From: an uncultured Gammaproteobacteria bacterium
GTDB lineage: Bacteria; Patescibacteriota; Microgenomatia; Daviesbacterales; UBA10151
Direction of reading: 5' to 3'
NCBI GenBank assembly: GCA_964500725.1
Contig: CAZCNP010000001.1
Location: forward strand, 138,950-202,949
DNA length: 64,000 nucleotides
Positions 3,203 to 62,444 of the stretch are shown piece by piece. Each line of letters opens with the position of its first letter. The stretch's first letter is position 1. The notes beneath the pieces are model-generated. The model was not told the DNA's origin, searched no databases, and saw only the letters and a program-made list of their open reading frames with translations. The position numbers were made by a program, and so were the translations under genes.

Positions 3203-3217
3203 AGTTTGTCAAATTTT

Positions 3218-3290
3218 CCCCACAACAAAGTACTCTAATTTGCAGAGATGTGCTATAATTCAGTTATTATATTTTATTCTATAGGATAAC
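3218..3290 (+). promoter_or_regulatory. sigma70-type promoter with extended -10 (TGcTATAAT at 3251-3259); copy 1 of a duplicated promoter/5' segment
   Basis: gTGcTATAAT with a weak -35 (TACTCT); the same 150+ bp recurs at 9636-9840. Confidence 0.45.
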
Positions 3291-3292
3291 CT

Positions 3293-3613
3293 ATGAGTAC
3301 TAAAGAAGGTTTGGACGGATCCGTTTCAAACCAAGAAAAAAACAGCGCTCCTTCCACAGAGACACCGTTATATATTAACGGTACCTCAATATTGGCTTTC
3401 AGTCAAGGGGTTAATTTTAGAGAATTCCCTACCTCTGTAAAAGAGATTTTCTCAGGTGTCAGACAACCTCAGGATAAATGGTATCGCACAGCAGTTCTTG
3501 CTGCTTCCGCAGCAGTTGGCTTTGGATTGTCTATCGCATTTGTTTCCTTACTTGATCCTCAAACACCATCACTAATAAAAACAGTCATAGATTCAGTAGG
3601 GAGAATACCATAA
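3293..3613 (+). CDS. hypothetical membrane-associated protein (first gene of surface-protein operon)
   Basis: 106 aa with a C-terminal hydrophobic helix; its stop overlaps the next start (ATAATGG); its 5' 100 nt are duplicated at 9742. Confidence 0.55.
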   Translation: MSTKEGLDGSVSNQEKNSAPSTETPLYINGTSILAFSQGVNFREFPTSVKEIFSGVRQPQDKWYRTAVLAASAAVGFGLSIAFVSLLDPQTPSLIKTVIDSVGRIP

Positions 3614-4431
3614 TGGCTAACCCGGAAAGAAGACATGCAGGACTGCGTGTGGCTTTGGTTACTGCTTTAGGATTCTCAGGCGCAACCGGTGCAGTGCTTG
3701 CAGGGAAGGCATTTCTTGAAGGAGTTTCCAGACAACCGGTAGTCGCCAGTGAAAATCAAGAAGGAGGCATTATGCCTTCTTTAAAAACCTTTAACGAGCT
3801 AGTCGCTCAAACTCCTTTCCCGGCTATACCAACAATTACAGAAACTCCAACAGCTACTTCTACCAGCACTGCTACAAGTACAACTGAACCTACTGCTTCA
3901 AATACACCAACAGGAACAGCAACTAAACCAGCAAGTACTGCAACAGGCACTGCAACAGCAACAGAAGTTCCAACCCAAGAACCTACCAAAATACCAGCCA
4001 CAGCTATTATTAAACCCACAGAGGTTCCTACTGCTGAAACAGCTCCTACTCCTGATACTACTCCAGCACCTACAGCTCTAGCTCCTAAAATTGAGCCACC
4101 TGCTCCCCCAACCCAGCCTCCTCCTCCCCCAGAAAATGTCGATCCAAAGAAACGATTGCTGGATGCTACAAAGGCAGACTTAGTAGGAAGACTGGGAGTA
4201 AGCCCAAATAATATTGCCCCTATACTATATGACAATGCACTTATCTGGCAGAAAGATGGTACTATACTTTGTCCATATCCAATAGGCCCCAAGGACGGTA
4301 CTGGCTCCACCCGTTCTGATGGCAAAATGATCGCATTTTATTTAAAAGATAGTCCTAAAATAATACACATTTATTTCAGCGATCCTAACACAGGTAATTT
4401 TTCCTATTGTGGTACAGGCACCCGATCTTAA
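3613..4431 (+). CDS. hypothetical Thr/Pro-rich surface protein
   Basis: 272 aa; N-terminal hydrophobic segment, long (T/A/P)-rich low-complexity linker, Cys-containing C-terminal domain. Confidence 0.55.
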   Translation: MANPERRHAGLRVALVTALGFSGATGAVLAGKAFLEGVSRQPVVASENQEGGIMPSLKTFNELVAQTPFPAIPTITETPTATSTSTATSTTEPTASNTPTGTATKPASTATGTATATEVPTQEPTKIPATAIIKPTEVPTAETAPTPDTTPAPTALAPKIEPPAPPTQPPPPPENVDPKKRLLDATKADLVGRLGVSPNNIAPILYDNALIWQKDGTILCPYPIGPKDGTGSTRSDGKMIAFYLKDSPKIIHIYFSDPNTGNFSYCGTGTRS

Positions 4432-4494
4432 TAGCATCCGTTAAATTCTATCCTCTAATTGACCTTTGCATTCCTCATTTGTTACTCTTAAGCT

Positions 4495-4992
4495 ATGGAT
4501 AATCTAAATACTAAAGACAACTTATTATCTATTTCTCTTAAGAAGAAAAGAATATACATTATTTTTATAGTTTCCATTATTGTTTTATTATCAGCAATAA
4601 TTTTATTCATAAAATATCCCGCTTTTAAATCACTCTCTTCCAACCAAAGTCTGTATGGTGCAACTTTTGTCCCTCAAAAATACGACCAAAGCCCCACTTA
4701 TCCAACAGCAGTTTATCAAAAGGGTAAAGATTTTTTAGCTTACGGAACAATAAAAAACCTCGACAAAAAACTTTCTTGGGTTGAGCTGCAAGGCGCCAAT
4801 AATACTAGCTTTAAAACTCAATTAACTTGCAAAGGAAAGATTGTAGAGATGAGTATCCAGAACAATCAAAGGAGAATCGTCTCGTTAAAGGAGGGTTTAT
4901 CTGAAATGAACCTCGGAGACAAGTTCTTTGGAGTCTGTAGCAATCAAACTTGTCAGGAATTAAAAACTTGCACCCTTATCAAACGGTTTTAA
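4495..4992 (+). CDS. hypothetical membrane-anchored protein
   Basis: 165 aa with an N-terminal TM anchor and a small Cys-containing ectodomain; same operon. Confidence 0.5.
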   Translation: MDNLNTKDNLLSISLKKKRIYIIFIVSIIVLLSAIILFIKYPAFKSLSSNQSLYGATFVPQKYDQSPTYPTAVYQKGKDFLAYGTIKNLDKKLSWVELQGANNTSFKTQLTCKGKIVEMSIQNNQRRIVSLKEGLSEMNLGDKFFGVCSNQTCQELKTCTLIKRF

Positions 4993-4998
4993 TTTAAT

Positions 4999-7900
4999 AT
5001 GAAAAAAGGACCTAAATTATTAGTTCAACTATTATTCCTTTGTTTATTTTTGATAATTTTCTCAATTCTTACAAACCAAGAAGCACAAGCCTTAATAGAT
5101 GGTTGCGGAGGCTCAGAAGTCTGTTCTAGAAATGGCACCACAGGCTATTGCCCTGCTGCTCCTAATGATAGTTACACTGGTCAAGCATGCGCTGAAGAAG
5201 GATGCTGTTATGATAATGCTGGGATATGTGGCTCAGATTGGAGATATTGCGATGGTACTTTAGGGACCAATAGTACTGATACAAGAAGATATTGGGGTTG
5301 CCCTGGATGTGAAGGTGGTGGAAGCCCAACAGGTTCTATTTCTGCCAGCCCAAATCCTTGTTATTTAACAGCTAATAATAGTATTTGCACTTCTAATATA
5401 TCCTGGAATACCAGCAATACTTCTACTGTCAGGGTTTGTGTAAAAAATAGCAGCGTCAATACTTATGACCCGTTTAGCAGTGAACTTATTGGATCTTCAG
5501 AACCTGCTACCTGGATTGCTCCTGATAAAACTTATACTTTTACTATATTTAACTCCGGCAGCTGCAGTGGTGATTACCTTGCTACAACTACAGTTAGAGC
5601 TAAAGTACCTGCCCCAACTACCTCTACATCTTCTTGTATCAATGCAGATGGTTCTAATATAACTATTAGCTGGATCGATACACTTCCTGCCATAAGTTAT
5701 ATAGATATTAGTGCTTCTAGTACCTTCTCCCCCTATTATCATAAAAGTGTCTCAGGCACCCCTACCGATACTTATGGATTTACCGGTTATAGCAGTACGA
5801 TAAATGGACAACTTTTAACATTAGAGCCCAGTACCACGTATCATGTCCGGTCCTGGAATAATCAAGTCCAAAGTGATTCTTCTTCATTTACCACCCCCGT
5901 TGCCTGCAGTTGCACTGTTTCCTGGCATGATGTCCCTTCAGTTGTCTCTGCCAATACTGATTTTTCTCTTCATTTCACTGAAGGAACCAGTAATGTGGGA
6001 TGGAATTTTGGCTCGCTCTACTTAGATGATGTGTATGTAAACAATACCGTTGGAGGAAAATGCCTTACTGGTGCTGATATTAATGGAAACTGTGTTCTTG
6101 GTGATATTTATTTTGGAGCTTGGGAAGGCCTTAATTCAGGAGCACCTGGTACTCATACTTTAACTTGGAAAGTACCTGATACACGTACAGGAGTAACTTT
6201 TGGAAGCACTCCTGCCACTACCTGTACTCCATCTGCAGATTTTACTACCTGTGCAGTAGCATTTGACTGTTCTACCTTAGCCTGTCATACTAATACTACT
6301 TCTGCAATCTATGCAAATGGTATTTGTGGCTTAAAATCCTGTGCTCCAAATGCTCCAGCAGCCACAAGCTGTGGAGATGCCACCTGTCAAACTACTACCC
6401 CAACTTATTATACTGGCTCTAGTTGTAGTACTACTGCATGTTCTAACTACAATGCTTTTCCAGAAGCTACAATACCTGCTTGTCGGACAAGTGGTGGTTC
6501 TGGATATGATGGGAGTTCTTGTACCGAAACTACATACACAGCCAACTGTACTGATACTGATGCCTGTACTACTGATTCCTGTAGTGCTGCTGGGGTATGT
6601 ACTCATACTAATAATCCTGTTAATGGCGCCTGGTCTGATTGGAGCGGTGGCACTTGCGTATCCTGTGGAACTGGAACCTTAACTGGAGAAGTTAGAACGT
6701 GCACTAATCTTACTCCTTCTTGTGGTGGGACTGAATGTACTAGAAATGATGGAACCCTAACTACTCCTGCTGATAGAACAGAACAAAGATCAGGAGTAAC
6801 AGCCTGCACTGGCTCAACTACCTGTGACAGTACTCATTACTGTTCCTCTGGTACTTGTACAGCTTGTCCTGCTCTACCAGCTGCTCCGACTGGACTCAGT
6901 CCAATCACAGGATCTGTTCTTAGAACTGCTGGAAATACTACTTTTTCCTGGGATGCAGTTACAGGAGCTGCTGGGTATTATTTTAGGATTGCTCCTGACA
7001 TAAGAGTCCCGGGAGGTACTTGTGGTACAGATGTCTATTGCTCTGACATGATTACTTCTAATTCTATCTCCCGCACTCTTACAACTGGAACTGATTATAC
7101 CTGGTGGGTTCATAATGCTATAGCTGCAAATGGTTCATGCGGTACTGCTGGACCATATACTCCTGCCACTCTTCATGTCTGTTCTGCCATGACTACCCCA
7201 ACTCTCTTATCTCCTGCAGGAAACATAGATGCTGGTACCCGGAATATTACCTGGAACCGGGTTGCAAATGCTACAGCATATTCTGTGAGAGTAGCTGACC
7301 GAACTGATGGAAGCTCTGGTGACATAGAGAACTGTGATACCTGTACTGTAGATTTAACCCCTGCTGCTCTAAGTTGTGCTAATACAGCTGATACAACTTG
7401 CTCATATTCGTATAACTTTCTCTCAGGACACAACTACGATATCTGGGTTCACTCAAAGGTAGATAACAATTCTGAATGTTGGAGCAACGTGAACTACCTT
7501 ATTGCTAAAGTCCGTCCAGCTGTTTCTGCAGGTCCGAGCTGTATTCCCGCTGGATATAACGGAGCAGGATATACTATTACCTGGGCAGGCAGCGCTCCTG
7601 CCGGTTCCTACGTTGATATCAGCACCAGAGAAGACTTTGCTACTTACTATCATAAGGATGTCTCCAGTACCACCAGCACTAACGGAACCGATTTTAACCT
7701 TTCCACAGGAGGAGGAACCTCATTGACCTACAGTGGCAACACTCCATATTATGTCAGGCTTTACTGGAACTACTCCACACCTTACCACAGCGGCACCGCT
7801 TCCTTTACTACTCCTAACTATTGTACCCCTACTGGTTCCTGCAGTGTTTCTCCCACTACAATTACTACATATGCAACAGATACTACCACCTACACTGCCA

Positions 7901-8160
7901 CCCCATCAGGAGGAAATGGAACATATACATACTCCTGGACTTTTAATGGTAATACCGACCCATGTACTGCAAGTTCTTGTACTAAAAACTTTTCAACTGC
8001 TGGGACAGTAAGCTCCAGCTTGACTATCTCATCAGCTGGCTTAACATCATCAACTATCTCTTGTCCTGATGTAACTGTTCAACAAGCAGTAGGACCCTGG
8101 ATACAGGCTGTTGGTGATGTTCATTCAAATACTGGCATCAATGCTCCTGGAGGCCCATAA
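4999..8160 (+). CDS. large secreted Cys/Thr/Ser-rich multi-domain surface protein, putative adhesin (hevein-like ChtBD1 + TSP1 repeat + Cys-rich repeats + FN3-like units)
   Basis: 1053 aa with a signal peptide. It has QACAEEGCCYDNAGICGSDWRYCDG (hevein-like CC..G.CG...YC), WSDWSGGTCVSCGTGTLTGEVRTC (thrombospondin type-1 WSxWS...CSxTCG), multiple C-x-x-D-x-C-T-T-D-S-C repeats, and repeated ~90-aa units with W..V.GA.GY.FR / TDYTWWV (FN3-like). Confidence 0.75.
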   Translation: MKKGPKLLVQLLFLCLFLIIFSILTNQEAQALIDGCGGSEVCSRNGTTGYCPAAPNDSYTGQACAEEGCCYDNAGICGSDWRYCDGTLGTNSTDTRRYWGCPGCEGGGSPTGSISASPNPCYLTANNSICTSNISWNTSNTSTVRVCVKNSSVNTYDPFSSELIGSSEPATWIAPDKTYTFTIFNSGSCSGDYLATTTVRAKVPAPTTSTSSCINADGSNITISWIDTLPAISYIDISASSTFSPYYHKSVSGTPTDTYGFTGYSSTINGQLLTLEPSTTYHVRSWNNQVQSDSSSFTTPVACSCTVSWHDVPSVVSANTDFSLHFTEGTSNVGWNFGSLYLDDVYVNNTVGGKCLTGADINGNCVLGDIYFGAWEGLNSGAPGTHTLTWKVPDTRTGVTFGSTPATTCTPSADFTTCAVAFDCSTLACHTNTTSAIYANGICGLKSCAPNAPAATSCGDATCQTTTPTYYTGSSCSTTACSNYNAFPEATIPACRTSGGSGYDGSSCTETTYTANCTDTDACTTDSCSAAGVCTHTNNPVNGAWSDWSGGTCVSCGTGTLTGEVRTCTNLTPSCGGTECTRNDGTLTTPADRTEQRSGVTACTGSTTCDSTHYCSSGTCTACPALPAAPTGLSPITGSVLRTAGNTTFSWDAVTGAAGYYFRIAPDIRVPGGTCGTDVYCSDMITSNSISRTLTTGTDYTWWVHNAIAANGSCGTAGPYTPATLHVCSAMTTPTLLSPAGNIDAGTRNITWNRVANATAYSVRVADRTDGSSGDIENCDTCTVDLTPAALSCANTADTTCSYSYNFLSGHNYDIWVHSKVDNNSECWSNVNYLIAKVRPAVSAGPSCIPAGYNGAGYTITWAGSAPAGSYVDISTREDFATYYHKDVSSTTSTNGTDFNLSTGGGTSLTYSGNTPYYVRLYWNYSTPYHSGTASFTTPNYCTPTGSCSVSPTTITTYATDTTTYTATPSGGNGTYTYSWTFNGNTDPCTASSCTKNFSTAGTVSSSLTISSAGLTSSTISCPDVTVQQAVGPWIQAVGDVHSNTGINAPGGP

Positions 8161-8172: not shown

Positions 8173-8604
8173 CTACTTAAGTTTTGACTTTACAAAATAA
8201 GCTATTTTCTCTACTAACTTCTTTGCTTCTTCCGCACTCGATTTATTAATTGATTCAATAAACTCCGGGTATCTTGTTTCTATATAGTAAGGATTAAGCT
8301 CACTTACTAGATCAGACAATTTGTTGAATTCTTTATCAAATTCAGCACAGATTCTTACTAATTCTTTTAAATCATGTGTTTTCTTAAAATCCAGTTCTTT
8401 GGCTACAATAAGAGCTTTTAAGTATTTTTCCGCAGCTTGATGGAAATGAAAACATATTGGAGAATAAAATTCTATCCCTTCTTCCAAAGAAATTTTGGCA
8501 TATTTGAAATCCTCATCAGCTTTTTTGATCCATCCTTCTGCCAATTTTGGATCAACCATATAATACTCTACCTTCTGAAAGTATTGACTTGATAAATGGA
8601 TCAC
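8173..8604 (-). CDS. HEPN domain protein (toxin partner of the upstream nucleotidyltransferase)
   Basis: 143 aa, alpha-helical, with ETRYP and R-x(4-6)-H-like HEPN signature; overlaps the NTase gene by about 50 nt. Confidence 0.65.
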   Translation of the reverse strand: MIHLSSQYFQKVEYYMVDPKLAEGWIKKADEDFKYAKISLEEGIEFYSPICFHFHQAAEKYLKALIVAKELDFKKTHDLKELVRICAEFDKEFNKLSDLVSELNPYYIETRYPEFIESINKSSAEEAKKLVEKIAYFVKSKLK

Positions 8605-8872
8605 CTATTCTAACCCTTTCTGAGACTTCTTTAGGAGTGTAAACAATAAAATCTGCAGCTATATTTTTTTCTACTAATTTATAAATCTCAACTACCCTAT
8701 CATGAAAGTTCCTACGATCATCCTTAATTATTAAAAAATCCAGATCAGAATCATCAGTCATATTTCCAGTAACAGATGAGCCAAACAGAAAAATCTTCTG
8801 AGGTTTGTACTTCTTTATCAGCTGGTCTGTAATAGAATCAATTTGGGACTGTATCTGTGATTTAGTCATCAA
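8552..8872 (-). CDS. minimal nucleotidyltransferase (MNT) domain protein, antitoxin-type
   Basis: LFGSSVTG...DSDLDFLII, the pol-beta-type NTase GS...D.D motif. Confidence 0.7.
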   Translation of the reverse strand: MMTKSQIQSQIDSITDQLIKKYKPQKIFLFGSSVTGNMTDDSDLDFLIIKDDRRNFHDRVVEIYKLVEKNIAADFIVYTPKEVSERVRIGDPFIKSILSEGRVLYG

Positions 8873-8966
8873 ACGTATTATATCATTTTCATCAATACCA
8901 GCCCAACTTGTAAAACCAGTAGTTTTGATTTATGTTTAGCAAAGAGGAAGTCTGAAGCTCAAGAAA

Positions 8967-9302
8967 TTACCCCTTAAGCATCTGCTGAATCTGTTTTTTA
9001 AATGTAGGCAGGTCTTTTTTGATTATCTCCCATACTAACCCCAAATCTACTCCAAAATAACCATGAATCAGTTTATCTCTTAGACCTGAAATCTTCTGCC
9101 AAGGAATAGCTGGATATTTCTTTTTAAAATCACCTGGTAAATTCTTAACTGCTTCTCCTATTATCTCAAGTCTTCTGATAGCTGCATCCTGAATGGGAAC
9201 TTCTCTGATAAATTTATCCTTAGATATGTCATTCGTTTCTTTTTCAATCCATTCAATACTTTCTGAAATATGAATTAAGAAAATAGTGGAATCTTTCCGC
9301 AT
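8967..9302 (-). CDS. hepT: HepT-like (DUF86) HEPN toxin
   Basis: RDKLIHGYF gives the R-x4-H-x-Y HEPN/DUF86 motif; paired with the upstream MntA-like gene. Confidence 0.7.
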   Translation of the reverse strand: MRKDSTIFLIHISESIEWIEKETNDISKDKFIREVPIQDAAIRRLEIIGEAVKNLPGDFKKKYPAIPWQKISGLRDKLIHGYFGVDLGLVWEIIKKDLPTFKKQIQQMLKG

Positions 9303-9315
9303 GTATCTTGCTAAT

Positions 9316-9642
9316 TTAAAGAATCCGAATCTGATCTTTTTGAATATAGTCTTTAAGTAATGGATTAATAGAGTTATATGTTAATAAATCCACCTTTTTA
9401 CCTACTGCTTTTTTCAAATCCATCTCCAGACCTATTAGATCAAGCAGACTACTGCCTCTGGGAAGCTCTACTAAAATATCAATATCACTACCCCTTGCTT
9501 GATCACCCCTGGCAAAAGAACCGAAAAGACTGCTTCTTTTTACCCTTGCTTGTTTAAGAATAGGCAGGATTTGATCTTTAAGCTTTTCTATACGCATCTG
9601 TAACTTAGTCATTAAATTTATTATACCATTTCCCCACAACAA
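9316..9642 (-). CDS. mntA: MntA-like nucleotidyltransferase antitoxin
   Basis: LFGSFARGDQARGSDIDILVE NTase motif; the true start is probably an internal Met (MTKLQ or MRIEKL). Confidence 0.7.
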   Translation of the reverse strand: MLWGNGIINLMTKLQMRIEKLKDQILPILKQARVKRSSLFGSFARGDQARGSDIDILVELPRGSSLLDLIGLEMDLKKAVGKKVDLLTYNSINPLLKDYIQKDQIRIL

Positions 9643-9840
9643 AGTACTCTAATTTGCAGAGATGTGCTATAATTCAGTTATTATATTTTATTCTATAAGC
9701 CTAGCTTGAAATTCTCGCTATACTCAAATTATAGGATAGCCTATGAGTACTAAAGAAGGTCTGTCACCCGGGTTACCAGACCAGAACCAAGAAAAAAACA
9801 GCGCTCCTTCCACAGAGACACCGTTACCAGATAACGTTAT
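9636..9840 (+). repeat. second copy of the promoter plus first ~100 nt of gene 3293, carrying a 36-bp insertion
   Basis: Near-identical to 3218-3375 (including TGcTATAAT at 9665-9673) but with an extra AGCCTAGCTTGAAATTCTCGCTATACTCAAAT inserted after TATA; the reading frame decays into a short junk ORF. Confidence 0.7.
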
Positions 9841-9846
9841 ATTAAA

Positions 9847-10059
9847 TTGCTTATTAAGTCAAGTAGGAAAAAAAAAGCAGCTATTTTTTTTGCAGCTGCT
9901 GGAACAGTAAACTCCAGTTTAACTGTCTCATCAGCTGGCTTAACATCATCAACTATCTCTTGTCCTGATGTAACTGTTCAACAAGCAGTAGGACCCTGGA
10001 TACAGGCTGTTGGTGATGTTCATTCAAACTCAGGGATAAATGCTGCTGGAGGACCATAA
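9847..10059 (+). pseudogene. 3'-terminal fragment of a paralogue of the 1053-aa surface protein
   Basis: About 150 nt are nearly identical to 8010-8160, encoding ...SSAGLTSSTISCPDVTVQQAVGPWIQAVGDVHSN.GINA.GGP*; only the last ~55 codons of a paralogue survive. Confidence 0.6.
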
Positions 10060-34348: not shown

Positions 34349-36679
34349 TCAGTGACACAACTGAGTACCGGAATCAGTAAAGGTTTTTCCTGCCTCGGGG
34401 ATAAACTGCCAGTTGAAACTATCCGGATGAAGAGTAAGTTTAAGCACACCGAACGTATCATCATTTCCTATATCGCTATTTTGTATAAAGGCTCCTGGGA
34501 AAGGATAATGATTTTTCCCGCCAGTACCCACAACAAATTCACGAATGCCTTTAAGAGGATCATAACCTCCGCTTGGATTTTGAGGAGCAAACCGTTCGTA
34601 ATTATGGTCGTGACCATTTAAAACCACATCAACTCCATTATCATATAAGGCTTGCCAAATCGGCTGCATAGATGTATAACTGCCGTGTTGTCCGGAACTA
34701 AATCTGGGATGATGCCAATATGCAGCCTGGCAAAGACCAGGGTGAGCAGCCAGGTCAGCCCTGACCCAACTCTCTTGCGGCGAGCCCGCGCCACAACCCC
34801 CTACTTTGGAACAGTTACTATTGATAACCAAAATATGCCAAGATCCAAGGTTATAGCTATAATACCCTTTTGCAGGATCACCCGCAGCAGCGCCAAAATA
34901 ATTAAAATATCCTGAAGCGCCGGTGGTCAAATATTCATGATTGCCAACAGCCGGTTTAGTTTTATCTTTGAACTGACCCCATGATGGATTGTAACAATTT
35001 GCAAATTCAAGCGCAGTTCCGGAATCATATACACTATCACCTGCAGTAAATACTAAACCAGAAGCTCCTCCTGCAAAAATAGAATTTAAAAGTTTAGCTG
35101 TTTGCTCATCGCCGGAGCTAGAACAGGAAGCAATATCACCGGCTCCAACTAATATAGGATCAACCCCTCCCACAGGTGTTGAACTTGGGGCAGGCGTAAC
35201 AGTAGAAGTTGGTGTAGCAAGCACTACCCCATCATTATGCAAAGCATCAAGAAATGAACCATACGAAGCAGTGCTCCACTCACGAGCACTCTCTACTATT
35301 GATCCCTCTCCCCATTCATTAAAAGTTGTAATAAGTTGCCAGGGTGCATTAGAGGCTAACATATTTTGAATGTTTTGTGCCCATCGCGCCAAATCACGTG
35401 TAAGTCTTGCTGACTCACCAACTTTCCAAAAACCAGGGCTGATGGAAAAACTGTATCCTGTCTGGGAATCTTCAGCTACTGCCGGCCCATATTGATGCCA
35501 CCCATCAGGCTGGCTTGCACAAGTTTTATAACCGCTGAATACTTTTAAAACTATATGTGCATTTACTGTATTTGCCTGGGCCCAGCGGTCTGCCATTGCG
35601 CAATTATCAGCCGGGTCAGCATAGGCAAAAACTACAAACCGCCCCCCAATCTTAAGATAACTAGGATCACTGCTATAATGATCACGGATATAAATAAGAT
35701 CATTTTGTATTTGAGTTGCTGTGGGATTTCCCTGTCCTTCTGGCTCATAATAAATGCTCCATAAAAATCCTGTACCAGCACTTGCCTGTAGAATTGTAGG
35801 CATCCGGTTATCAGTATTTGTTCCCCGACCCCACCAAGATGCTATCCCAGCTTGAATCTTCCCATACTTCATAGCAGCGATTTGCTGTTTTAGTATAACC
35901 TGGTCACCTAGATCATAAAAACCTAAACTGGGATTAAAGTTGGTATAAGGATAAATTTCTTGTTGAGTCCAGGCTTGCGGAAACCAAGGATAATAGAATG
36001 CAGCCCTAATTGGGAATACTAACTCTCCTGCTGGAGCCAGTGTTACCGTTGGTGTTGGCGTCGGTGTAGGGGTCGGACCTGAGTAAGTTGGAACTGGTGT
36101 TGGAGTAGAAACAGTCGTTGAGTCAACGGAAGTTTCAATAACCAGTTGTGGAGTATTTATACCTGATTCACGGCTTGCTAAATTGATCTGGGTAGGCCCA
36201 TCAGTTGAAAGTCCTAAACTTAATAAACCATTACCTTCTACAAGTGGTGTTACATCAATACTGGTCCAAGCACCTTTAGCAAAAGCGCCTGATGCGCCCG
36301 TCATCACCCCAGATATCTTTGGAGCATTTGAGTAAGTGATAGTTGATTCTTTCCAGCTATTATCTGCAACTCCCCAAACTTTATAGCCAAAATATCCATT
36401 GCTTCCAGCATAAATTCTTAAAGTAGCGCGCAAGACAGTACCAGTCAGATTTTGAATGTTAAAACGTATGTAACTATGCAGAACCGGCGAACCATCAACT
36501 CTAATTGCTGTTCTATTACCGAAGTTATTGTTTGGATATGACTCATTTACATAAGCATCAGCAACTGAAGTAAACGTTGTTGTTTGAGCTGCAGCCATTG
36601 TCACAATTGGTTTACGCGGGATAATCAGTAAGAATAAACCTAAAAATACTAAAAGAAGATTTCTTTTTGAGTAAATCAT
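34349..36679 (-). CDS. secreted multi-domain protein: DNRLRE-like beta-sandwich + putative glycoside-hydrolase-like domain + calcineurin-like metallophosphoesterase
   Basis: Signal peptide. N-terminal DAYVNESYPNNNFGN...LRATLRIYA (DNRLRE-type). Central AAFYYPWF...FNEWGEGS (GH99-like, tentative). C-terminal GDIASCS...GDSVYDSGT...GNHEY...GHDHNYER metallophosphatase motifs. GC visibly higher than its neighbours. Confidence 0.7.
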   Translation of the reverse strand: MIYSKRNLLLVFLGLFLLIIPRKPIVTMAAAQTTTFTSVADAYVNESYPNNNFGNRTAIRVDGSPVLHSYIRFNIQNLTGTVLRATLRIYAGSNGYFGYKVWGVADNSWKESTITYSNAPKISGVMTGASGAFAKGAWTSIDVTPLVEGNGLLSLGLSTDGPTQINLASRESGINTPQLVIETSVDSTTVSTPTPVPTYSGPTPTPTPTPTVTLAPAGELVFPIRAAFYYPWFPQAWTQQEIYPYTNFNPSLGFYDLGDQVILKQQIAAMKYGKIQAGIASWWGRGTNTDNRMPTILQASAGTGFLWSIYYEPEGQGNPTATQIQNDLIYIRDHYSSDPSYLKIGGRFVVFAYADPADNCAMADRWAQANTVNAHIVLKVFSGYKTCASQPDGWHQYGPAVAEDSQTGYSFSISPGFWKVGESARLTRDLARWAQNIQNMLASNAPWQLITTFNEWGEGSIVESAREWSTASYGSFLDALHNDGVVLATPTSTVTPAPSSTPVGGVDPILVGAGDIASCSSSGDEQTAKLLNSIFAGGASGLVFTAGDSVYDSGTALEFANCYNPSWGQFKDKTKPAVGNHEYLTTGASGYFNYFGAAAGDPAKGYYSYNLGSWHILVINSNCSKVGGCGAGSPQESWVRADLAAHPGLCQAAYWHHPRFSSGQHGSYTSMQPIWQALYDNGVDVVLNGHDHNYERFAPQNPSGGYDPLKGIREFVVGTGGKNHYPFPGAFIQNSDIGNDDTFGVLKLTLHPDSFNWQFIPEAGKTFTDSGTQLCH

Positions 36680-43740: not shown

Positions 43741-45489
43741 TTATTCTTGCTTGCCTGCATTTTTACAAGCCTGATAATTTGCCCAAGCTTGGTCACGACA
43801 AACCTGAGTTTTTCCATGACAGTCGCTTGCTTTCATACATGCATCATATTTATCAGCTGGAGAAACCTCGTCTAAATACGAACCTTTAGCATTGTCTGAA
43901 CATACTTTCTGACAGCTATTAAAAACTTCAAAGCATCTATAACTTTCCCACTCGTAATTTTTATAGGAGCAATCCGTACCAGTTTGTTGCTGAGGCTTGT
44001 CTTTTGGCTCAGTATCAACTCCAGTTTCTTTATCAAGTTTTAGCTCAGGTTTTGCAGGAGATACAATCTCACGCCCAATATCTTTCTCAATCTGACTGAT
44101 TGCACTGTTAAGCATCTCATCAATAGATTTGAAATTACCTATTTCAGAAACACGCCCACGTTCAATGACCCCGGTTTCTATGTTGATGAGTTCAGCAAAG
44201 ACATGACCAGAATTTTGATTATCCCAATAAAACAAGTCTCCTGCGGATATATCTAACATATATCTGACGCTCTTCCCCTTCTTCCTTTGATCTAAAGTAA
44301 GCATTTGGTAATCCTTATCCAAAGGAATAATCATACCGATACTCTGGCCTTCGCTAAAAGTAGAGTCAGATGTTTCTTGTTTATCCCCCTCAGCATCTGA
44401 TCTTTTCCTTAGTGAAACATCATTAGAAGTAAGTTGTTGTTGACCTCCCCTAGCTGAAACAAACTGCTGGGCAGCTTTGAATATATCAGCCTGCTCTAAG
44501 GTTCTACCACCGGAGGTTCTTCCGGTAAGCCACTGGTCATAGCGGTATTGACGAACTTTTCTTAAGGCTTCATCTCGAGTTTTACTGCTGTCAACAATTT
44601 CAGTTGCTGCCTTATATCCAATTCCGCTCCCTTCAGCAAAATTTTTTATGGCCGAATCTCTTACTCTGACCCATTCTTCCCGCTCTTGTGTTTCTTTCCT
44701 GATTCGCTGTGAATCCATTAAATTACTTATCTTTTGTCTGCTGATTGCTTCATCAAATTTTGATGTATATTTCTCTTGTCCAAATGGCACAGTAGCTAAA
44801 GATCGATACGCGATTTCTGCCGCTTCACCTTTTGTTAAATTGGACACATTGGTATTAAGGATGTTTTTATCTTTGGCCAAGGTTTGTGCTTCCTCATCTG
44901 TTAATATTTTTCCCGGCTCCCAATCCATCAGGCGGGATAAAGACCCTGCAGATTCTGCACCTTTAACCTGAGCATCCGGATTGAAATTAGTTTTTACTTG
45001 CTGGGCATTAACCTGCTTTATAAATCTGAAAGGCAGGTTTGATTGCTTTTCCGAACCTTCTTTAAACCAGCCTTGCTCCTTTGCATAACAAACTTCTGTT
45101 TCATGCTGGTAACCACTGATATCTGCAAAACAGTCTTTGTAAGTCCCTTTATCAGGAGTCACCCCTGAAAGCTTAGTCAGCGTCACTGCCCATTCACCCC
45201 GTGTCATAGTTTGTTCTGGATCGAAGTTCCCATCCTTATCCCCTTCCAAAATCTTTTCTCTGGCAAGATAGCTAATTGCAGTGTAGTTTTTATGATCTGC
45301 AGACACATCTTTAAATGGTTTGGGTTTGAATGAGGCAATATTACCTTCTGTAGTGGTTGTGTCTGCTTTTAAACCCCCCCTGGAGGATAATAACCAAATT
45401 GCTGCAGCAACAATCAAAACTACAACAACAATAAGCGGGATAATATGTACAATGCCCGCTTCGCAGCGAGGCGAGCCTTTTTGGTTCAT
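43741..45489 (-). CDS. membrane-anchored surface protein with SLH-like domain and Cys-rich C-terminus
   Basis: TM; FKDVSADHKNYTAISYLAREKILEGDKDGNFDPEQTMTRGEWAVTL follows the SLH pattern F.DV...H...I..L...GI..G..DG.F.P...TR.E.A..L. Confidence 0.6.
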   Translation of the reverse strand: MNQKGSPRCEAGIVHIIPLIVVVVLIVAAAIWLLSSRGGLKADTTTTEGNIASFKPKPFKDVSADHKNYTAISYLAREKILEGDKDGNFDPEQTMTRGEWAVTLTKLSGVTPDKGTYKDCFADISGYQHETEVCYAKEQGWFKEGSEKQSNLPFRFIKQVNAQQVKTNFNPDAQVKGAESAGSLSRLMDWEPGKILTDEEAQTLAKDKNILNTNVSNLTKGEAAEIAYRSLATVPFGQEKYTSKFDEAISRQKISNLMDSQRIRKETQEREEWVRVRDSAIKNFAEGSGIGYKAATEIVDSSKTRDEALRKVRQYRYDQWLTGRTSGGRTLEQADIFKAAQQFVSARGGQQQLTSNDVSLRKRSDAEGDKQETSDSTFSEGQSIGMIIPLDKDYQMLTLDQRKKGKSVRYMLDISAGDLFYWDNQNSGHVFAELINIETGVIERGRVSEIGNFKSIDEMLNSAISQIEKDIGREIVSPAKPELKLDKETGVDTEPKDKPQQQTGTDCSYKNYEWESYRCFEVFNSCQKVCSDNAKGSYLDEVSPADKYDACMKASDCHGKTQVCRDQAWANYQACKNAGKQE

Positions 45490-47005: not shown

Positions 47006-48838
47006 TTAACGTGGATCGTAAGTCTCGCCAAAAGTTGCCACTACCCTATTGTTTTTATCATAAGCTATAATTTCTATCTTCTTCCAGTCAAGTTCTATGC
47101 CTGATGGACCGTTTGTACTACAACCTGTTGGGCCCCGGCAGACTTGTGAAGGGTCTCCCTCGATTTTACCACTCCAGAAATTATTTCCATCTTTTTTAAT
47201 CTCTATTCTTATAGGTAGCCAAACCCTGACATCCTTTCCAGGATCTGTTGCAACAATAATATGGGGCTTTTGGGCTGAGGAGAAAGCGATTGATGGCTGA
47301 CCAGTTGCCACATCCAAAAATTCGAAGTATCCATCTGAATATTCATTTGCTTCTGGAGCACCAGTAGAACGCTTCGTAGGTAACGAAACTGGCGATGGAC
47401 TTGCTAAAGTAGATGGGGTAATCATTTGGCCAATGTTTGCTTCCAAATCAGCCAGCCCTTCCTTAAAAATGGCCTCCAGCTTATTCAAATTGCGCCACCC
47501 CAATGAACTGCCTGCTTTCTCACCCACCCCACTCTCCCAATTCCTTAGAATCAAATTGAGACGCCCGACACTTCGACCTTCTAGATAAAATGTACTTATA
47601 CCAATCTTCATCAAATATTTAACCTTAGCAAGATTATTCCTTGGAAGAACGCCATAGTTTTTATCTAACAGCAGCAGGATCTCTACTGATTCCCGGGTAT
47701 TCATGGCCGGATTGTCATTAATTTTTACTATATCTTCATAATGTGGTGGGGTACTTTTGGATATCAAAAGGTCATCTTTTGAGATAACTATTCCTTTTTC
47801 GGCAAACACTTTTTGTAATGCTTCAAGGACATTAAAGGAAGGGGGTTCTCCCCAACGCACTTTGTCCTCTGCCAACAATTTCTCGTAATTCTTTTCGCGC
47901 GCTTTCCTGATGTATGCTGAAGATTCCTCTTCACTACCATCCTTAGTGGTTGCCATAATTTCTGCCGCTGCCTCATCGCCAATTATTTTTGCCATATTCT
48001 TCTGGCGAGCTTTTCTGATTCGCTCATTCTCCGCCTGGCGCTGGCTCCCAAGCTTGTCATCAAGATCTATTAAGTTTTCAACCCTATACCTCTCCACCTG
48101 ATGTTCCAGTTCCGGCGAAAATTTTTCCTTTCCCAAAGGGATTGTAGCTACAGAACGATAAATTATTCCAGCAGCTTCCCCCTTCGTCAGATTACCCGCA
48201 ATATCATTGCCTTGCGATATCTCGCGTTCTTTGGCAACACCCACAGCAGTCTCATTTGAACTTTTTGCCCCCTCTGTCCCCTCCCACTTCATAAGCCGGG
48301 ATAGAGAACCAACTGCCTCTGTAATTTTCACCGGAACGTCGGGATTAAAATTCTCTTTAGACTCTTGAGCATAAACTGCCACGATCAGTTGTTGGAAGTT
48401 AAATGTTTGCGGGTCCACAGCAGTTAGTCCTTCAAGCCAACCCTGCTCTTTGGCTAAGCAAATAGAGGCCGCATCCTTCCCCAGCCCCACATCGGAAAAA
48501 CAATTCTTATATGTTCCCTCATCAGGGGTAATACCCGTTAGCCTCACCAAGATTACAGTCCATCCCGCCCTAGTCAACACATCTTTAGAGTTAAATTTCC
48601 CGTCCTTATCCCCTTCCAATACTCCCTCCCTGGCTAAATAAGAAATTGCGGTGTAATTTTTGTCATTAACTGAAACATCCTCAAATGGCTTTTGCTTAAG
48701 AGAAGCTATTTCTTCAAAGGATGGTGGAGTATTTCGTCCTTTGATAAAAAACCAAATTATTGCACCGAAAACTGCAAGCACAACTAAAATTGCAACAATA
48801 TGAACAGCACCCTTTTGGGCCAAAAAATGGCGAGTCAT
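47006..48838 (-). CDS. paralogous SLH-like membrane-anchored surface protein
   Basis: N-terminal ~130 aa alignable with 43741-45489 (FEDVSVNDKNYTAISYLAREGVLEGDKDGKFNS...TRAGW). Confidence 0.6.
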   Translation of the reverse strand: MTRHFLAQKGAVHIVAILVVLAVFGAIIWFFIKGRNTPPSFEEIASLKQKPFEDVSVNDKNYTAISYLAREGVLEGDKDGKFNSKDVLTRAGWTVILVRLTGITPDEGTYKNCFSDVGLGKDAASICLAKEQGWLEGLTAVDPQTFNFQQLIVAVYAQESKENFNPDVPVKITEAVGSLSRLMKWEGTEGAKSSNETAVGVAKEREISQGNDIAGNLTKGEAAGIIYRSVATIPLGKEKFSPELEHQVERYRVENLIDLDDKLGSQRQAENERIRKARQKNMAKIIGDEAAAEIMATTKDGSEEESSAYIRKAREKNYEKLLAEDKVRWGEPPSFNVLEALQKVFAEKGIVISKDDLLISKSTPPHYEDIVKINDNPAMNTRESVEILLLLDKNYGVLPRNNLAKVKYLMKIGISTFYLEGRSVGRLNLILRNWESGVGEKAGSSLGWRNLNKLEAIFKEGLADLEANIGQMITPSTLASPSPVSLPTKRSTGAPEANEYSDGYFEFLDVATGQPSIAFSSAQKPHIIVATDPGKDVRVWLPIRIEIKKDGNNFWSGKIEGDPSQVCRGPTGCSTNGPSGIELDWKKIEIIAYDKNNRVVATFGETYDPR

Positions 48839-60191: not shown

Positions 60192-60415
60192 GGAAGTTTA
60201 ATCTCCTCTAACAGCCTGTTAAACTTGTCCATTAATTCTGAAGTTTGGGGGGCAAAGCGGATGTATCTTTTGCAGCTACCACAGGATTCTTTAATTTGAG
60301 GAATATACTTTATGTACCCTTGGTTATAGGAAATTAATTTGAGAGTAAAAATTCTATCTTCCTCAGCACAATTGGGGCAAGGTTTGGTAGACTCAATTAA
60401 TATAAGATCAGTCAT
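60188..60415 (-). CDS. small zinc-ribbon protein
   Basis: CPNC...CGSC pairs. Confidence 0.4.
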   Translation of the reverse strand: MTDLILIESTKPCPNCAEEDRIFTLKLISYNQGYIKYIPQIKESCGSCKRYIRFAPQTSELMDKFNRLLEEIKLP

Positions 60416-62441: not shown

Positions 62442-62444
62442 TAG

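What the first reader, a model, noticed from the sequence alone, without database searches (positions are those of the whole stretch)
3218..8160. Surface-protein operon encoding a eukaryote-like adhesin (hevein-type chitin-binding + thrombospondin type-1 repeat + Cys-rich + FN3-like units)
Four co-directional genes sit behind a strong extended -10 promoter. The 1053-aa product has a signal peptide. It carries QACAEEGCCYDNAGICGSDWRYCDG, close to the hevein/ChtBD1 pattern C-x4-C-C-S-x2-G-x-C-G-x3-4-[FYW]-C. It carries WSDWSGGTCVSCGTGTLTGEVRTC, a textbook thrombospondin type-1 repeat. It also has several C..D.C.TD.C...G.C.H repeats and at least three ~90-aa FN3-like units (TDYTWWV / YYFRIAPD / YSVRVAD). 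This combination of eukaryotic extracellular modules is unusual in bacteria. It is consistent with attachment to a host cell surface or to chitin/glycan, as expected for an episymbiont.
Basis: partly seen in the sequence, partly recalled or inferred. Interest (0 to 1): 0.7.

Follow-up and report, generated by a model that had tools for sequence, protein, structure and literature searches.

The report
Modular secreted surface protein with thrombospondin repeat
A tiny uncultured groundwater bacterium (Candidatus Daviesbacteria) encodes a large secreted, cysteine-rich, many-domain protein that really does contain an animal-type thrombospondin type-1 repeat, but the proposed chitin-binding (hevein) domain is not supported and most of the other modules are ordinary bacterial ones.

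Summary
Four co-directional ORFs (3293-8160) follow an extended -10 box (TGCTATAAT, 3251-9). The last encodes a 1053-aa protein with a signal peptide, and every quoted motif is present. It is NCBI 'hypothetical protein HY383_03370', Candidatus Daviesbacteria.

- **TSR (aa 541-610): real.** It matches human thrombospondin-1 TSRs, and profiles built from Pfam-validated TSRs score it 24-48 bits against at most 8.5 bits in 5000 shuffles. The predicted fold retrieves TSR structures first, though weakly. It fails Pfam's own TSP_1 model.
- **Hevein/chitin-binding: not supported.** No Pfam or PDB hit appears, a hevein profile gives 5.6 bits (55 of 5000 shuffles do as well), the aromatic sugar-binding residues are missing, and the structure model is unusable.
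- **Other modules.** There are two FN3 units (not three), one PKD domain, one sub-threshold Dicty-type Cys repeat, and four beta-rich stretches (presumed beta-sandwiches) that match no named family.
- **C-terminal tail.** The 22-aa PWIQxxGDVHSNxGINxPGGP tail is the exact C-terminus of 14 related proteins and matches no known sorting signal.

The same contig carries two more TSR proteins, one passing Pfam and one already named by NCBI. The case is therefore a new member of a known kind. Function (adhesion or binding) is inferred.

The parts
3215..3283 (+). Promoter element holding the extended -10 box TGCTATAAT (3251-3259). The 69 nt are repeated 100% identically at 9629-9697.
   Evidence: Sequence read; repeat family D3; three-way alignment. 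No -35 match was found.
3293..3613 (+). Gene 1, 106 aa, with one predicted TM helix (aa 66-88). Its first ~40 codons overlap a conserved leader element: 30 nt are invariant at 3341-3370, and a palindrome ACCGTTA/TAACGGT lies at 3364-3382.
   Evidence: No Pfam or NCBIfam family was found.
3613..4431 (+). Gene 2, 272 aa. It has an N-terminal TM anchor (aa 13-31), a Pro/Thr-rich linker and a ~90-aa C-terminal domain.
   Evidence: No family hit and no homologue in related loci.
4495..4992 (+). Gene 3, 165 aa. It has an N-terminal TM anchor (aa ~17-47) and a ~120-aa external domain containing Cys residues.
   Evidence: No significant family hit.
4999..8160 (+). Gene 4, a 1053-aa secreted modular protein with 61 Cys, 16% Thr and 12% Ser. 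It is NCBI HY383_03370 'hypothetical protein', Candidatus Daviesbacteria.
4999..5091 (+). Signal peptide, aa 1-31, with an AQA-L cleavage motif and no lipobox.
   Evidence: Hydropathy analysis; sequence.
5092..5322 (+). N-terminal 10-Cys module, aa 32-108 (the 'hevein-like' segment). Its family is unassigned.
   Evidence: No Pfam or PDB hevein hit. Hevein profile score 5.6 bits, not significant. Only one homologue, P0092. AF2 pLDDT 41.
5323..5607 (+). Presumed beta-sandwich module, aa 109-203, with the 'ISASPNPC' signature. It is common in uncultured-bacterium proteins and its family is unassigned.
   Evidence: 32 of the listed homologues carry it. The profile finds no PDB relative.
5608..5913 (+). 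Copy 1 of the 'ISW..YVDIS..YYHK..YYVRLW' module, aa 204-305.
   Evidence: There is only a weak resemblance to antibody VH sequences.
5914..6243 (+). aa 306-415, a segment with no detectable relatives among the 150 listed hits.
   Evidence: region R3: no covering match.
6244..6618 (+). Cys-rich region, aa 416-540, including one Dicty_CTDC-like repeat at aa 516-537.
   Evidence: Pfam Dicty_CTDC 15-19 bits, below the 27-bit cut-off. A related repeated unit occurs in P0003 and at L001 9200-9672.
6619..6828 (+). Thrombospondin type-1 repeat (TSR), aa 541-610. It has WSDW, CxSCGxG, RTC and GGxEC motifs, a long C4-C5 loop and one extra Cys (C575). A short Cys knot follows at aa 611-625.
6874..7512 (+). 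Two FN3 domains, aa 626-730 and 731-838. By eye (not tested), each carries an inserted Cys-bearing loop.
   Evidence: The profile hits PDB FN3 domains (3mpc 1.4e-7, titin, fibronectin). 12 of 19 family members hit Pfam fn3.
7516..7833 (+). Copy 2 of the 'ISW..YVDIS..YYHK' module, aa 840-945.
7834..8088 (+). PKD-like domain, aa 946-1030.
   Evidence: The profile hits the PKD domains of collagenases ColH and ColG (3e-6 to 5e-5).
8089..8160 (+). Conserved C-terminal tail GPWIQAVGDVHSNTGINAPGGP plus the stop codon.
   Evidence: It is the C-terminus, within 0-2 residues, of 14 of the 15 other fetched proteins that carry the motif. P0048 runs 9 residues further, and in P0092 the motif is internal. 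Seven loci were found in four genome assemblies, three labelled Daviesbacteria. No NCBIfam sorting-signal model hits it.
9629..10059 (+). Collapsed second copy of the locus. It holds an identical promoter, the first ~40 codons of gene 1 (78-94% identical), then directly the last 171 nt of gene 4 (92% identical) in a different frame. It is probably a deletion remnant.

Best explanation
Gene 4 encodes a Sec-secreted, disulfide-rich, modular extracellular protein of a Candidatus Daviesbacteria (CPR/Microgenomates) bacterium.

**Domain order**
1. Signal peptide.
2. An orphan 10-Cys module.
3. Three beta-rich modules of unassigned family.
4. A Cys-rich region.
5. One genuine but divergent thrombospondin type-1 repeat.
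6. Two FN3 domains.
7. A second copy of one of the beta-rich modules.
8. A PKD-like domain.
9. A conserved 22-aa C-terminal tail.

**Proposed mechanism (inferred).** The string of beta-sandwich modules acts as a stalk. It presents the Cys-rich modules and the TSR as binding surfaces for a partner-cell or polymer (glycan or protein) ligand.

**Role of the tail (inferred).** A family of otherwise differently built Daviesbacteria surface proteins shares this tail. It most likely retains or docks the protein at the cell surface.

**Operon (inferred).** Genes 1-3 encode three small single-pass membrane proteins. They are probably co-transcribed from the extended -10 promoter and are candidate membrane partners. 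Nothing tested here links them to gene 4 beyond position.

**What is shown:** ORFs, motifs, domain identities (TSR, FN3, PKD), tail conservation and genomic setting.

**What is inferred:** secretion, surface retention, adhesion, ligand class and operon status.
For: **ORFs and promoter**
- ORFs and their spacing.
- Extended -10 box.
- Signal peptide and TM helices.

**TSR**
- PDB phmmer hits human TSP-1 TSRs: E 1.9e-6 for 3r6b and 1lsl, where two TSRs of the chain each match the single query TSR, and 1.8e-4 for a single TSR chain.
- In an exhaustive phmmer of 1.8 billion representatives, 9 of the 10 hits on aa 533-600 that I scanned carry Pfam TSP_1 far above threshold. The tenth, P0128, has no Pfam hit but is named a TSP1-domain protein by NCBI.
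- Home-built TSR profiles give 24-28 bits (canonical set) and 44-48 bits (long-loop set), against at most 8.5 bits for 5000 shuffles.
- The AF2 model has pLDDT 74.
- The nine best Foldseek hits are all TSR-containing structures.

**FN3 and PKD**
- FN3.
- PKD.

**Tail**
- It is conserved at the C-terminus (within 0-2 residues) of 14 other proteins, whatever domain precedes it.
- It is multi-copy within Daviesbacteria genomes.

**Genomic setting**
- The same contig carries two more TSR proteins beside dockerin and cohesin proteins. TSRs are therefore an established extracellular module in this lineage.
- GC3 of gene 4 (0.27) equals that of housekeeping genes. It is a resident gene, not a recent insert or an assembly chimera.
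- A second assembly carries a ~92% identical 3' end plus the neighbouring toxin-antitoxin genes.
Against: - There is no experimental or expression data.
- The TSR fails Pfam's TSP_1 model. It has two Trp instead of three, one Arg of the Arg layer, a one-residue deletion in CSxTCG and an extra Cys.
- Nothing identifies the ligand.
- There is no recognised anchor: no LPXTG, SLH domain, TM helix or lipobox. Surface retention is therefore conjecture.
- Genes 1-3 have no detectable homologues next to related tail-bearing genes, so a functional operon partnership is unsupported.
- About a third of the protein (aa 32-108, 306-415 and 416-515) has no assignable family.
Confidence: 0.55

Rival explanations
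1. The protein is a eukaryote-like adhesin whose N-terminal module is a hevein-type (ChtBD1) chitin-binding domain, so it attaches the cell to chitin or GlcNAc glycans.
For: The core Cys spacing C-x4-CC-x6-CG-x4-Y-C (aa 64-84) is one residue off the hevein pattern. Its only homologue, P0092, has the exact C-x4-CC-x5-CG-x4-Y-C spacing.
Against: - No Pfam Chitin_bind_1 hit appears even at E<=10.
- No hevein, WGA or chitinase chain appears among PDB hits at E<=10, although PDB holds many. The best hit is an insignificant trefoil factor (E 0.34).
- A hevein profile gives 5.6 bits, matched by 55 of 5000 shuffles, and gives -7.1 bits for P0092.
- Aligned by eye on the shared Cys residues, the positions of the residues I recall as hevein's sugar-binding aromatics (Trp21, Trp23; from memory) are Asn/Ile here and Gly/Gly in P0092.
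- The outer cysteines (C1, C7-C8) do not fit the spacing.
- The AF2 model is uninformative (pLDDT 41).
Confidence: 0.08
2. The protein is not a cell-cell adhesin. It is a non-catalytic binding or scaffold component of an extracellular polymer-targeting (cellulosome-like) system, and the TSR serves as a carbohydrate- or matrix-binding module.
For: - On the same contig, ~20 kb away, a canonical TSR sits in a 1094-aa protein that also has a weak, sub-threshold CBM_4_9 match.
- Another TSR there sits in P0128, beside dockerin and cohesin proteins.
- FN3 and PKD modules are typical of bacterial glycoside hydrolases. The best PDB FN3 matches include an 'Fn3-like protein' (3mpc) and a carbohydrate-binding family 6 protein (5g56).
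- The window also encodes a CBM96-GH99-type protein.
Against: - Gene 4 has no dockerin, cohesin, CBM or catalytic domain detectable by Pfam or NCBIfam.
- The association with the cohesin/dockerin island is by genome proximity only.
Confidence: 0.25
3. The locus is one member of a recombining family of variable surface-protein genes. The shared promoter-leader and shared 3' tail sequence serve as homology arms for cassette exchange or deletion, giving surface variation.
For: - A collapsed copy at 9629-10059 joins the identical 69-nt promoter and 5' leader directly to the last 171 nt of gene 4.
- The same promoter-leader precedes a different gene set in a related assembly (L001).
- Tail-encoding gene ends are multi-copy and coincide with contig breaks in other MAGs.
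Against: - Only one remnant and three copies of the leader were seen.
- No recombinase lies adjacent to the locus, and no population-level variants were examined.
- The tail is conserved at the protein level across diverged genomes, which a protein function explains without invoking recombination.
- The remnant's tail segment is out of frame with the leader ORF, so simple decay is sufficient.
Confidence: 0.12

Closest known systems
Thrombospondin type-1 repeat (TSR; Pfam TSP_1 PF00090), e.g. human thrombospondin-1 TSR2/3 (PDB 1LSL, 3R6B) and Branchiostoma hemicentin-1-like long-loop TSRs
   Same: - It shares the WSxW motif, CxSCGxG, RTC, P..GGxEC and the two terminal cysteines.
- It is 57% identical to one amphioxus TSR, including the long 'ECTxxDGTxTTxxDRTE' loop.
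- Pairwise and profile scores are significant.
- The predicted fold retrieves TSR structures first.
   Different: - It is below Pfam's detection.
- It has two Trp, not three, and one Arg of the stacking layer.
- It has a one-residue deletion between C1 and C2, so the eukaryotic O-fucosylation motif CxxS/TCG, as I recall it, is not kept.
- It has an extra Cys (C575).
- It sits in a bacterial protein, where the eukaryotic C-mannosylation and O-fucosylation of TSRs (general knowledge, not tested here) are not expected.
MBI4035996.1 'thrombospondin type-1 domain-containing protein' (P0128) and the adjacent 1094-aa TSP_1 protein of the same Daviesbacteria contig (JACQIW010000013.1)
   Same: Same genome and same contig, ~20 kb away. 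P0128's TSR is 59-68% identical to this one and shares WSxWSGGTC, GTLTGExRTC and GGTECT.
   Different: - From its sequence, by eye, P0128 looks like a 402-aa TM-anchored cohesin-like/TSR/dockerin-like protein. Pfam finds no family in it.
- The 1094-aa protein has a canonical six-Cys, three-Trp TSR that passes Pfam (47.5 bits), plus a weak, sub-threshold CBM_4_9 match.
- Neither carries the PWIQ tail or the FN3/PKD array.
Apicomplexan TRAP/CTRP-type adhesins (TSR plus other adhesive modules); the comparison is functional only
   Same: Both are secreted proteins that combine a TSR with other extracellular binding modules. TSR adhesins mediate host attachment in apicomplexans (PMC3417536).
   Different: The present protein has no vWA domain, no TM-cytoplasmic tail and no link to a motility motor. 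It has a bacterial Sec signal. There is no evidence here of host binding.
Bacterial C-terminal sorting/anchoring signals (LPXTG-sortase, PEP-CTERM, GlyGly-CTERM, T9SS CTD, SLH)
   Same: The tail is a short motif fixed at the extreme C-terminus of many differently built secreted proteins of one lineage, and it is multi-copy per genome.
   Different: - The tail has no hydrophobic helix and no basic end.
- At 22 aa it is far shorter than a T9SS CTD.
- No NCBIfam or Pfam model hits it.
- No candidate processing enzyme was identified.
- A related motif (PWWQVRGGDV) is internal in P0092, where it leads into a further ~270-aa region.

Membership tests
Thrombospondin type-1 repeat (TSP_1, PF00090) | Significant sequence similarity to bona fide TSRs | tested here: met
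   - phmmer against PDB finds TSP-1 TSRs at E 1.9e-6 and 1.8e-4.
- Profiles built from Pfam-validated TSRs score 24-48 bits, against at most 8.5 bits in 5000 shuffles.
- Whole-library hits on aa 533-600 are TSP_1 proteins.
Thrombospondin type-1 repeat (TSP_1, PF00090) | Reaches Pfam's curated gathering score (21.6 bits) | tested here: not met
   No TSP_1 hit was reported for the full protein or the isolated segment, even at E<=10. HMMER's filters drop most hits above E ~0.1. The paralogue P0128 also fails, whereas the 1094-aa neighbour passes.
Thrombospondin type-1 repeat (TSP_1, PF00090) | Six conserved cysteines plus the WxxW(xxW) and RxR stacking layers | tested here: inconclusive
   The six Cys positions align (C553, C556, C568, C580, C603, C609) and WSDW is present. 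Against this, the third Trp is replaced by GG, only one Arg (R566) is kept, and there is an extra Cys575.
Thrombospondin type-1 repeat (TSP_1, PF00090) | Elongated three-strand TSR fold | tested here: inconclusive
Hevein / ChtBD1 (Chitin_bind_1, PF00187) | Profile or pairwise similarity to hevein domains | tested here: not met
   No Pfam hit at E<=10. No hevein or WGA chain at E<=10 in PDB. Own hevein profile gives 5.6 bits, p~0.01 by shuffles, and -7.1 bits for the only homologue. The profile's input sequences were validated.
Hevein / ChtBD1 (Chitin_bind_1, PF00187) | Eight-Cys pattern C-x8-C-x4-CC-x5-C-x6-C-x3-5-C-x3-C (pattern from memory, consistent with the hevein/WGA sequences validated) | tested here: not met
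   The observed pattern is C-x12-C-x4-CC-x6-C-x6-C-x16-C-x2-C, plus two extra N-terminal Cys. Only the central C-x4-CC...CG...YC core resembles hevein.
Hevein / ChtBD1 (Chitin_bind_1, PF00187) | Sugar-binding Ser19, Trp/Tyr21, Trp/Tyr23 and Tyr30 (residue roles and numbering from memory, not checked against a source here) | tested here: not met
   By my own Cys-anchored alignment (no tool places these positions), the equivalents are Tyr71, Asn73, Ile76 and Tyr83. In P0092 they are Asp, Gly, Gly and Tyr. Only the last aromatic is kept.
Hevein / ChtBD1 (Chitin_bind_1, PF00187) | Hevein fold | tested here: inconclusive
   The AF2 run with a two-sequence alignment gave pLDDT 40.8, which is unusable. 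No further homologues could be found.
Fibronectin type III (fn3, PF00041) | Profile similarity to FN3 domains | tested here: met
   A profile of aa 626-838 units and their homologues hits PDB FN3 domains (1.4e-7 to 1e-3). 12 of 19 family members hit Pfam fn3. The two window units alone do not reach Pfam fn3.
PKD domain | Profile similarity to PKD domains | tested here: met
   A profile of aa 943-1032 and its homologues hits the ColH and ColG PKD domains (3e-6 to 5e-5) and a chain named 'PKD domain' (6aem, 3e-3).
Dictyostelium Cys-rich repeat (Dicty_CTDC, PF00526) | Reaches the Pfam gathering score (27 bits) and occurs in tandem copies | tested here: not met
   There is a single copy at aa 516-537, scoring 15.3 bits in the full protein and 19.1 bits in the isolated segment.
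Known bacterial C-terminal sorting signals (LPXTG, PEP-CTERM, GlyGly-CTERM, PGF-CTERM, T9SS CTD) | A signature motif followed by a hydrophobic helix and basic residues (or an ~80-aa CTD), detected by an NCBIfam or Pfam model | tested here: not met
   The only strongly hydrophobic 19-residue stretch in gene 4 is the N-terminal signal peptide, aa 2-29. The tail is hydrophilic. No sorting-signal model hit the protein at E<=1 in NCBIfam or Pfam.

The most novel reading that the evidence does not exclude
The 22-aa C-terminal tail (PWIQxxG(G)DVHSNxxINxPGGP-COOH) is a previously undescribed, lineage-specific surface-display or docking signal of Daviesbacteria. It would be a short beta-hairpin peptide that tethers a whole family of variable, modular secreted proteins to a cell-surface receptor, possibly the ~240-aa domain encoded downstream of tail genes in L003 and L006. 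This protein would use that system to display a thrombospondin repeat acquired long ago from an animal-like source. In this reading the duplicated promoter-leader and tail segments could also allow cassette exchange among family members.
Probability: 0.2. Interest if true: 0.7.

Novelty: new member of a known kind. Interest (0 to 1): 0.4.

Why it matters
- **Attachment biology of CPR bacteria.** CPR bacteria are thought to live attached to other cells, yet their attachment machinery is almost unknown.
- **What is new at the annotation level.** This unannotated 'hypothetical protein' carries a real animal-type thrombospondin repeat that Pfam's TSP_1 model does not detect. It is 57% identical to an amphioxus TSR.
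- **Lineage context.** The same Daviesbacteria contig has at least three TSR proteins within ~35 kb. Standard Pfam scans therefore under-count this family.
- **The practical lead.** The conserved C-terminal tail is shared by many differently built secreted proteins. It offers a sequence handle for cataloguing the surface proteome of this lineage, and a testable candidate for how these cells retain secreted proteins.
- **Limits.** Modular FN3/PKD surface proteins are ordinary in bacteria. TSR proteins in this genome are already flagged in public annotation. No function has been shown.

Tried and rejected
1. **Word-index homologue searches.** The TSR segment and the N-terminal module alignment both returned nothing. 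The full-length search gave only the protein itself plus one partial hit. The exhaustive representative search was needed.
2. **AF2 of the N-terminal module.** With two sequences it gave pLDDT 41, which is unusable, so no fold search was run on it.
3. **Trefoil (P-domain) reading of the N-terminal module.** The best PDB hit was pS2 at E 0.34, which is not significant. Rejected.
4. **Testing whether the tail is the detached first strand of a larger domain.**
   - By my own reading of the sequences, the ~240-aa family found downstream of tail genes (A8) carries its own equivalent N-terminal stretch.
   - It shows only weak similarity to the region after the internal motif in P0092 (BLASTP E 0.16; hhalign E 0.0046, probability 7.5%).
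   - It has no PDB or Pfam relative.
   - This is left as a lead, not a finding.
5. **Conservation of genes 1-3 beside related tail genes.** None was detected.
6. **Rfam on the whole window.** No hit. The consensus fold of the conserved leader showed no covariation with three sequences.
7. **Recent horizontal acquisition of gene 4 or its TSR.** GC3 (0.27 for the gene, 0.24 for the TSR) equals that of housekeeping genes. The raised GC comes from amino-acid composition (GC2 0.62).
8. **Literature search.** No paper in the library was found on type-1 thrombospondin repeats in CPR bacteria; the one relevant-looking hit I read concerns type-3 repeats. Two further searches, on eukaryotic-like TSP1 proteins in symbionts and on Daviesbacteria, found nothing relevant by title or abstract.

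Full report
**What is there**

The window has four + strand ORFs at 3293-3613 (106 aa), 3613-4431 (272 aa), 4495-4992 (165 aa) and 4999-8160 (1053 aa). They are separated by a 1-nt overlap, 63 nt and 6 nt. Upstream lies a perfect extended -10 box, TG-C-TATAAT, at 3251-3259, with no usable -35 (sequence). The simple consensus scan therefore does not list it.

Genes 1-3 are each predicted to have one transmembrane helix, and none matches a Pfam or NCBIfam family. Gene 4 has a hydrophobic N-terminus ending in AQA, 61 cysteines, and 16% Thr and 12% Ser. It is identical to NCBI 'hypothetical protein HY383_03370 [Candidatus Daviesbacteria bacterium]'. It lies on contig JACQIW010000013.1 of assembly GCA_016198315.1.

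Flanking genes on the other strand:
- An AdoMet decarboxylase-like gene upstream.
- Two HEPN/nucleotidyltransferase toxin-antitoxin pairs downstream.
- A DksA/TraR zinc-finger protein and Lgt beyond those.

**The thrombospondin repeat is real**

- Pfam reports no TSP_1 hit for the protein or for the isolated segment, even at E<=10.
- phmmer against PDB sequences nonetheless finds human thrombospondin-1 TSRs. The E-values are 1.9e-6 for 3r6b and 1lsl, where two TSRs of each chain match the single query TSR, and 1.8e-4 for a single TSR chain. UNC5D is a weaker hit.
- An exhaustive phmmer of 1.84 billion representatives gave 435 hits. Of the ten proteins matching aa 533-600 that I scanned, nine carry Pfam TSP_1 far above threshold. 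The tenth, P0128, has no Pfam hit.
- Those I looked up are amphioxus, bivalve, copepod and hydroid proteins, plus unnamed metagenome or read-archive sequences.
- Profiles that I built from those validated TSRs score aa 542-584 at 24-28 bits (canonical set). They score aa 542-599 at 44-48 bits (amphioxus long-loop set). The maximum in 5000 composition-matched shuffles was 8.5 bits.
- An AF2 model of aa 515-630, made with an alignment of TSRs, reached pLDDT 74.
- The nine best Foldseek PDB hits are all TSR-containing structures, but the E-values are only 0.07-3.

The repeat is divergent:
- It has two Trp rather than three.
- It keeps one Arg of the stacking layer.
- It has a one-residue deletion between the first two Cys.
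- It has an extra Cys575.
- It has a long C4-C5 loop, shared with the amphioxus TSRs. Identity to the best amphioxus TSR is 57%.

**TSRs are not unique to this gene in this genome**

About 20 kb away on the same contig, outside the window, lies an island flanked by two tyrosine-integrase genes. It encodes:
- A 1094-aa protein with a canonical TSR (Pfam TSP_1, 47.5 bits).
- P0128 (MBI4035996.1), which NCBI already names 'thrombospondin type-1 domain-containing protein'.
- Dockerin and cohesin proteins.

A metagenome scan also found two bacterial-looking TSR proteins, L009 and L011. The GC3 of gene 4 (0.27) and of its TSR segment (0.24) equals that of housekeeping genes. Any eukaryote-to-bacterium transfer is therefore old, and the raised GC reflects amino-acid composition.

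**The hevein assignment fails**

- The segment aa 62-86 does resemble the central hevein pattern. Its only homologue, P0092, has exactly the C-x4-CC-x5-CG-x4-Y-C spacing.
- There is no Pfam Chitin_bind_1 hit.
- No hevein, WGA or chitinase chain appears among PDB hits at E<=10. The best hit is a trefoil factor at E 0.34.
- A hevein profile gives 5.6 bits, reached by 55 of 5000 shuffles, and -7.1 bits for P0092.
- The outer cysteines do not fit the spacing.
- Aligning by eye on the shared cysteines, the positions of the residues I recall as hevein's sugar-binding aromatics (Trp21 and Trp23, from memory) are Asn/Ile here and Gly/Gly in P0092.
- AF2 with two sequences gave pLDDT 41, so fold could not be tested.

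I treat the module as an orphan 10-Cys domain.

**The other modules**

| Residues | Assignment | Evidence |
|---|---|---|
| aa 626-838 | Two FN3 domains | Profile hits PDB FN3 at 1.4e-7 and below; 12 of 19 family members hit Pfam fn3 |
| aa 946-1030 | PKD-like domain | Hits ColH and ColG PKD domains at 3e-6 |
| aa 109-203 | Widespread module with an 'ISASPNPC' signature (presumed beta-sandwich) | No PDB relative |
| aa 204-305 and 840-945 | Two copies of an 'ISW..YVDIS..YYHK' module | Only weak resemblance to antibody VH |
| aa 516-537 | One sub-threshold Dicty_CTDC-like repeat | |
| aa 306-415 | No relatives among the listed hits | |

**The tail**

The tail GPWIQAVGDVHSNTGINAPGGP is the C-terminus, within 0-2 residues, of 14 of the 15 other fetched proteins that carry the motif. 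It follows directly after whatever last domain each has. P0048 runs 9 residues further. In the fifteenth, P0092, a related motif is internal.

A scan of 185,579 species genomes found the tail in four assemblies:
- Three are labelled Daviesbacteria.
- The fourth is a MAG labelled 'uncultured Gammaproteobacteria', whose contigs are ~80-92% identical to this locus.

Several copies occur per genome, often at contig ends.

The tail has no hydrophobic helix and matches no NCBIfam or Pfam sorting-signal model. In P0092 the related motif PWWQVRGGDV leads into ~270 more residues. In L003 and L006 a ~240-aa domain protein lies downstream of the tail gene. That domain is fused C-terminally in P0036, P0148 and P0076. 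It has no Pfam or PDB relative, and its similarity to the P0092 region is only suggestive. A docking or retention role for the tail is my inference.

**Best explanation**

This is a secreted modular binding protein. A stalk of beta-sandwich modules presents Cys-rich modules and a TSR, and the protein belongs to a Daviesbacteria family defined by the shared tail. Adhesion to a partner cell is plausible for a CPR organism. Binding of an extracellular polymer within a cohesin/dockerin-type system is a serious rival, given the genomic company that TSRs keep here. Neither the ligand nor the localisation nor co-transcription with genes 1-3 has been shown, and genes 1-3 have no homologues beside related tail genes.

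**Noticed alongside**

Positions 9629-10059 hold a collapsed copy of the locus:
- The identical 69-nt promoter.
- The first ~40 codons of gene 1.
- Directly after that, the last 171 nt of gene 4 at 92% identity, in a different frame.

The same promoter-leader precedes different genes in a related assembly. It carries an invariant 30-nt stretch and a 7-bp palindrome inside the start of gene 1.

**Verdict**

It is wrong or unsupported on hevein and chitin, and it overstates the 'eukaryotic' character. The finding is a new member of a known kind. The conserved tail is the most promising open lead.

Noticed in passing
window 9629-10059: A collapsed duplicate of the locus. It holds a 69-nt promoter 100% identical to 3215-3283 and the first ~40 codons of gene 1 (with a 36-nt insertion before the start codon). 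These are joined directly to the last 171 nt of gene 4 (92% identical; 7 synonymous and 6 non-synonymous codon differences), out of frame. It looks like a deletion remnant of a second operon copy.
   Followed up: partly
window 3262-3412; also 9676-9868 and L001 1243-1432: A conserved promoter-leader element overlaps the start of gene 1. It has 30 invariant nt (3341-3370) with no synonymous variation, and a perfect 7-bp palindrome ACCGTTA (3364-3370) / TAACGGT (3376-3382). In L001 it precedes a different gene set. It may be a regulatory site or an upstream ORF. There is no Rfam hit and no covariation with three copies.
   Followed up: partly
window 8173-9642 (- strand): Two tandem HEPN/nucleotidyltransferase toxin-antitoxin pairs (HEPN + NTP_transf_2, and HepT-like + NTP_transf_2) sit between gene 4 and its collapsed duplicate. 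The related assembly L001 has only one pair at this position.
   Followed up: partly
L015 1-11335 (contig JACQIW010000013.1, 214.9-226.2 kb, ~14 kb beyond the window start): An island flanked by two tyrosine-integrase genes. It encodes a 1094-aa protein with a canonical TSR (Pfam TSP_1, 47.5 bits) and a weak, sub-threshold CBM_4_9 match, the TSR protein P0128, a dockerin protein and a cohesin protein. A holin-like gene lies just beyond the second integrase. TSRs in this genome keep cellulosome-like company and may be mobile.
   Followed up: partly
L001, L002, L005, L006, L007 (first ~400 nt of each): In other Daviesbacteria assemblies the tail-encoding 3' ends of family members lie at or within ~400 nt of contig ends. 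They are nearly identical between contigs of one MAG, which indicates multi-copy sequence that breaks assemblies.
   Followed up: partly
L003 6640-7488; L006 ~1355-2437; C-termini of P0036, P0148, P0076: An uncharacterised ~240-aa domain with the signature ...P.YD.LKSLYY.Q.K ... PAE.I..QPKYL.IL...W.EIQ. It occurs as a separate secreted protein downstream of tail genes, or fused to the C-terminus of related surface proteins. It has no Pfam or PDB relative.
   Followed up: partly
L001/L002 (CAYQAW010000023.1, CAYQAW010000005.1): A MAG labelled 'uncultured Gammaproteobacteria' has contigs ~80-92% identical in DNA to this Daviesbacteria locus, covering the gene 4 3' end, the HEPN/MNT genes and the promoter-leader. 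It is probably mis-binned or mislabelled.
   Followed up: no
window 43741-45489 and 47006-48838 (- strand): Two proteins with S-layer homology (SLH) domains. The organism therefore has an SLH-type cell-wall anchoring route, which gene 4 lacks.
   Followed up: no
window 57987-62546 (- strand): A Prim-Pol/PriCT/DUF3987 primase-like gene lies next to a large serine recombinase. This is probably an integrated mobile element or prophage remnant.
   Followed up: no
window 34349-36679 (- strand): A 776-aa protein combining CBM96, a GH99-like region and a calcineurin-like phosphoesterase domain, in a locally GC-richer stretch.
   Followed up: no
L009 835-1842 and L011 239-3409 (JGI metagenome contigs): Two bacterial-looking ORFs with signal peptides and two or three TSR-like repeats. 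L009 shares the extra Cys before GG seen in the window's TSR. By eye, L011 ends in a peptidoglycan-binding-like region. Divergent TSRs may be more widespread in uncultured bacteria than Pfam annotation shows.
   Followed up: no
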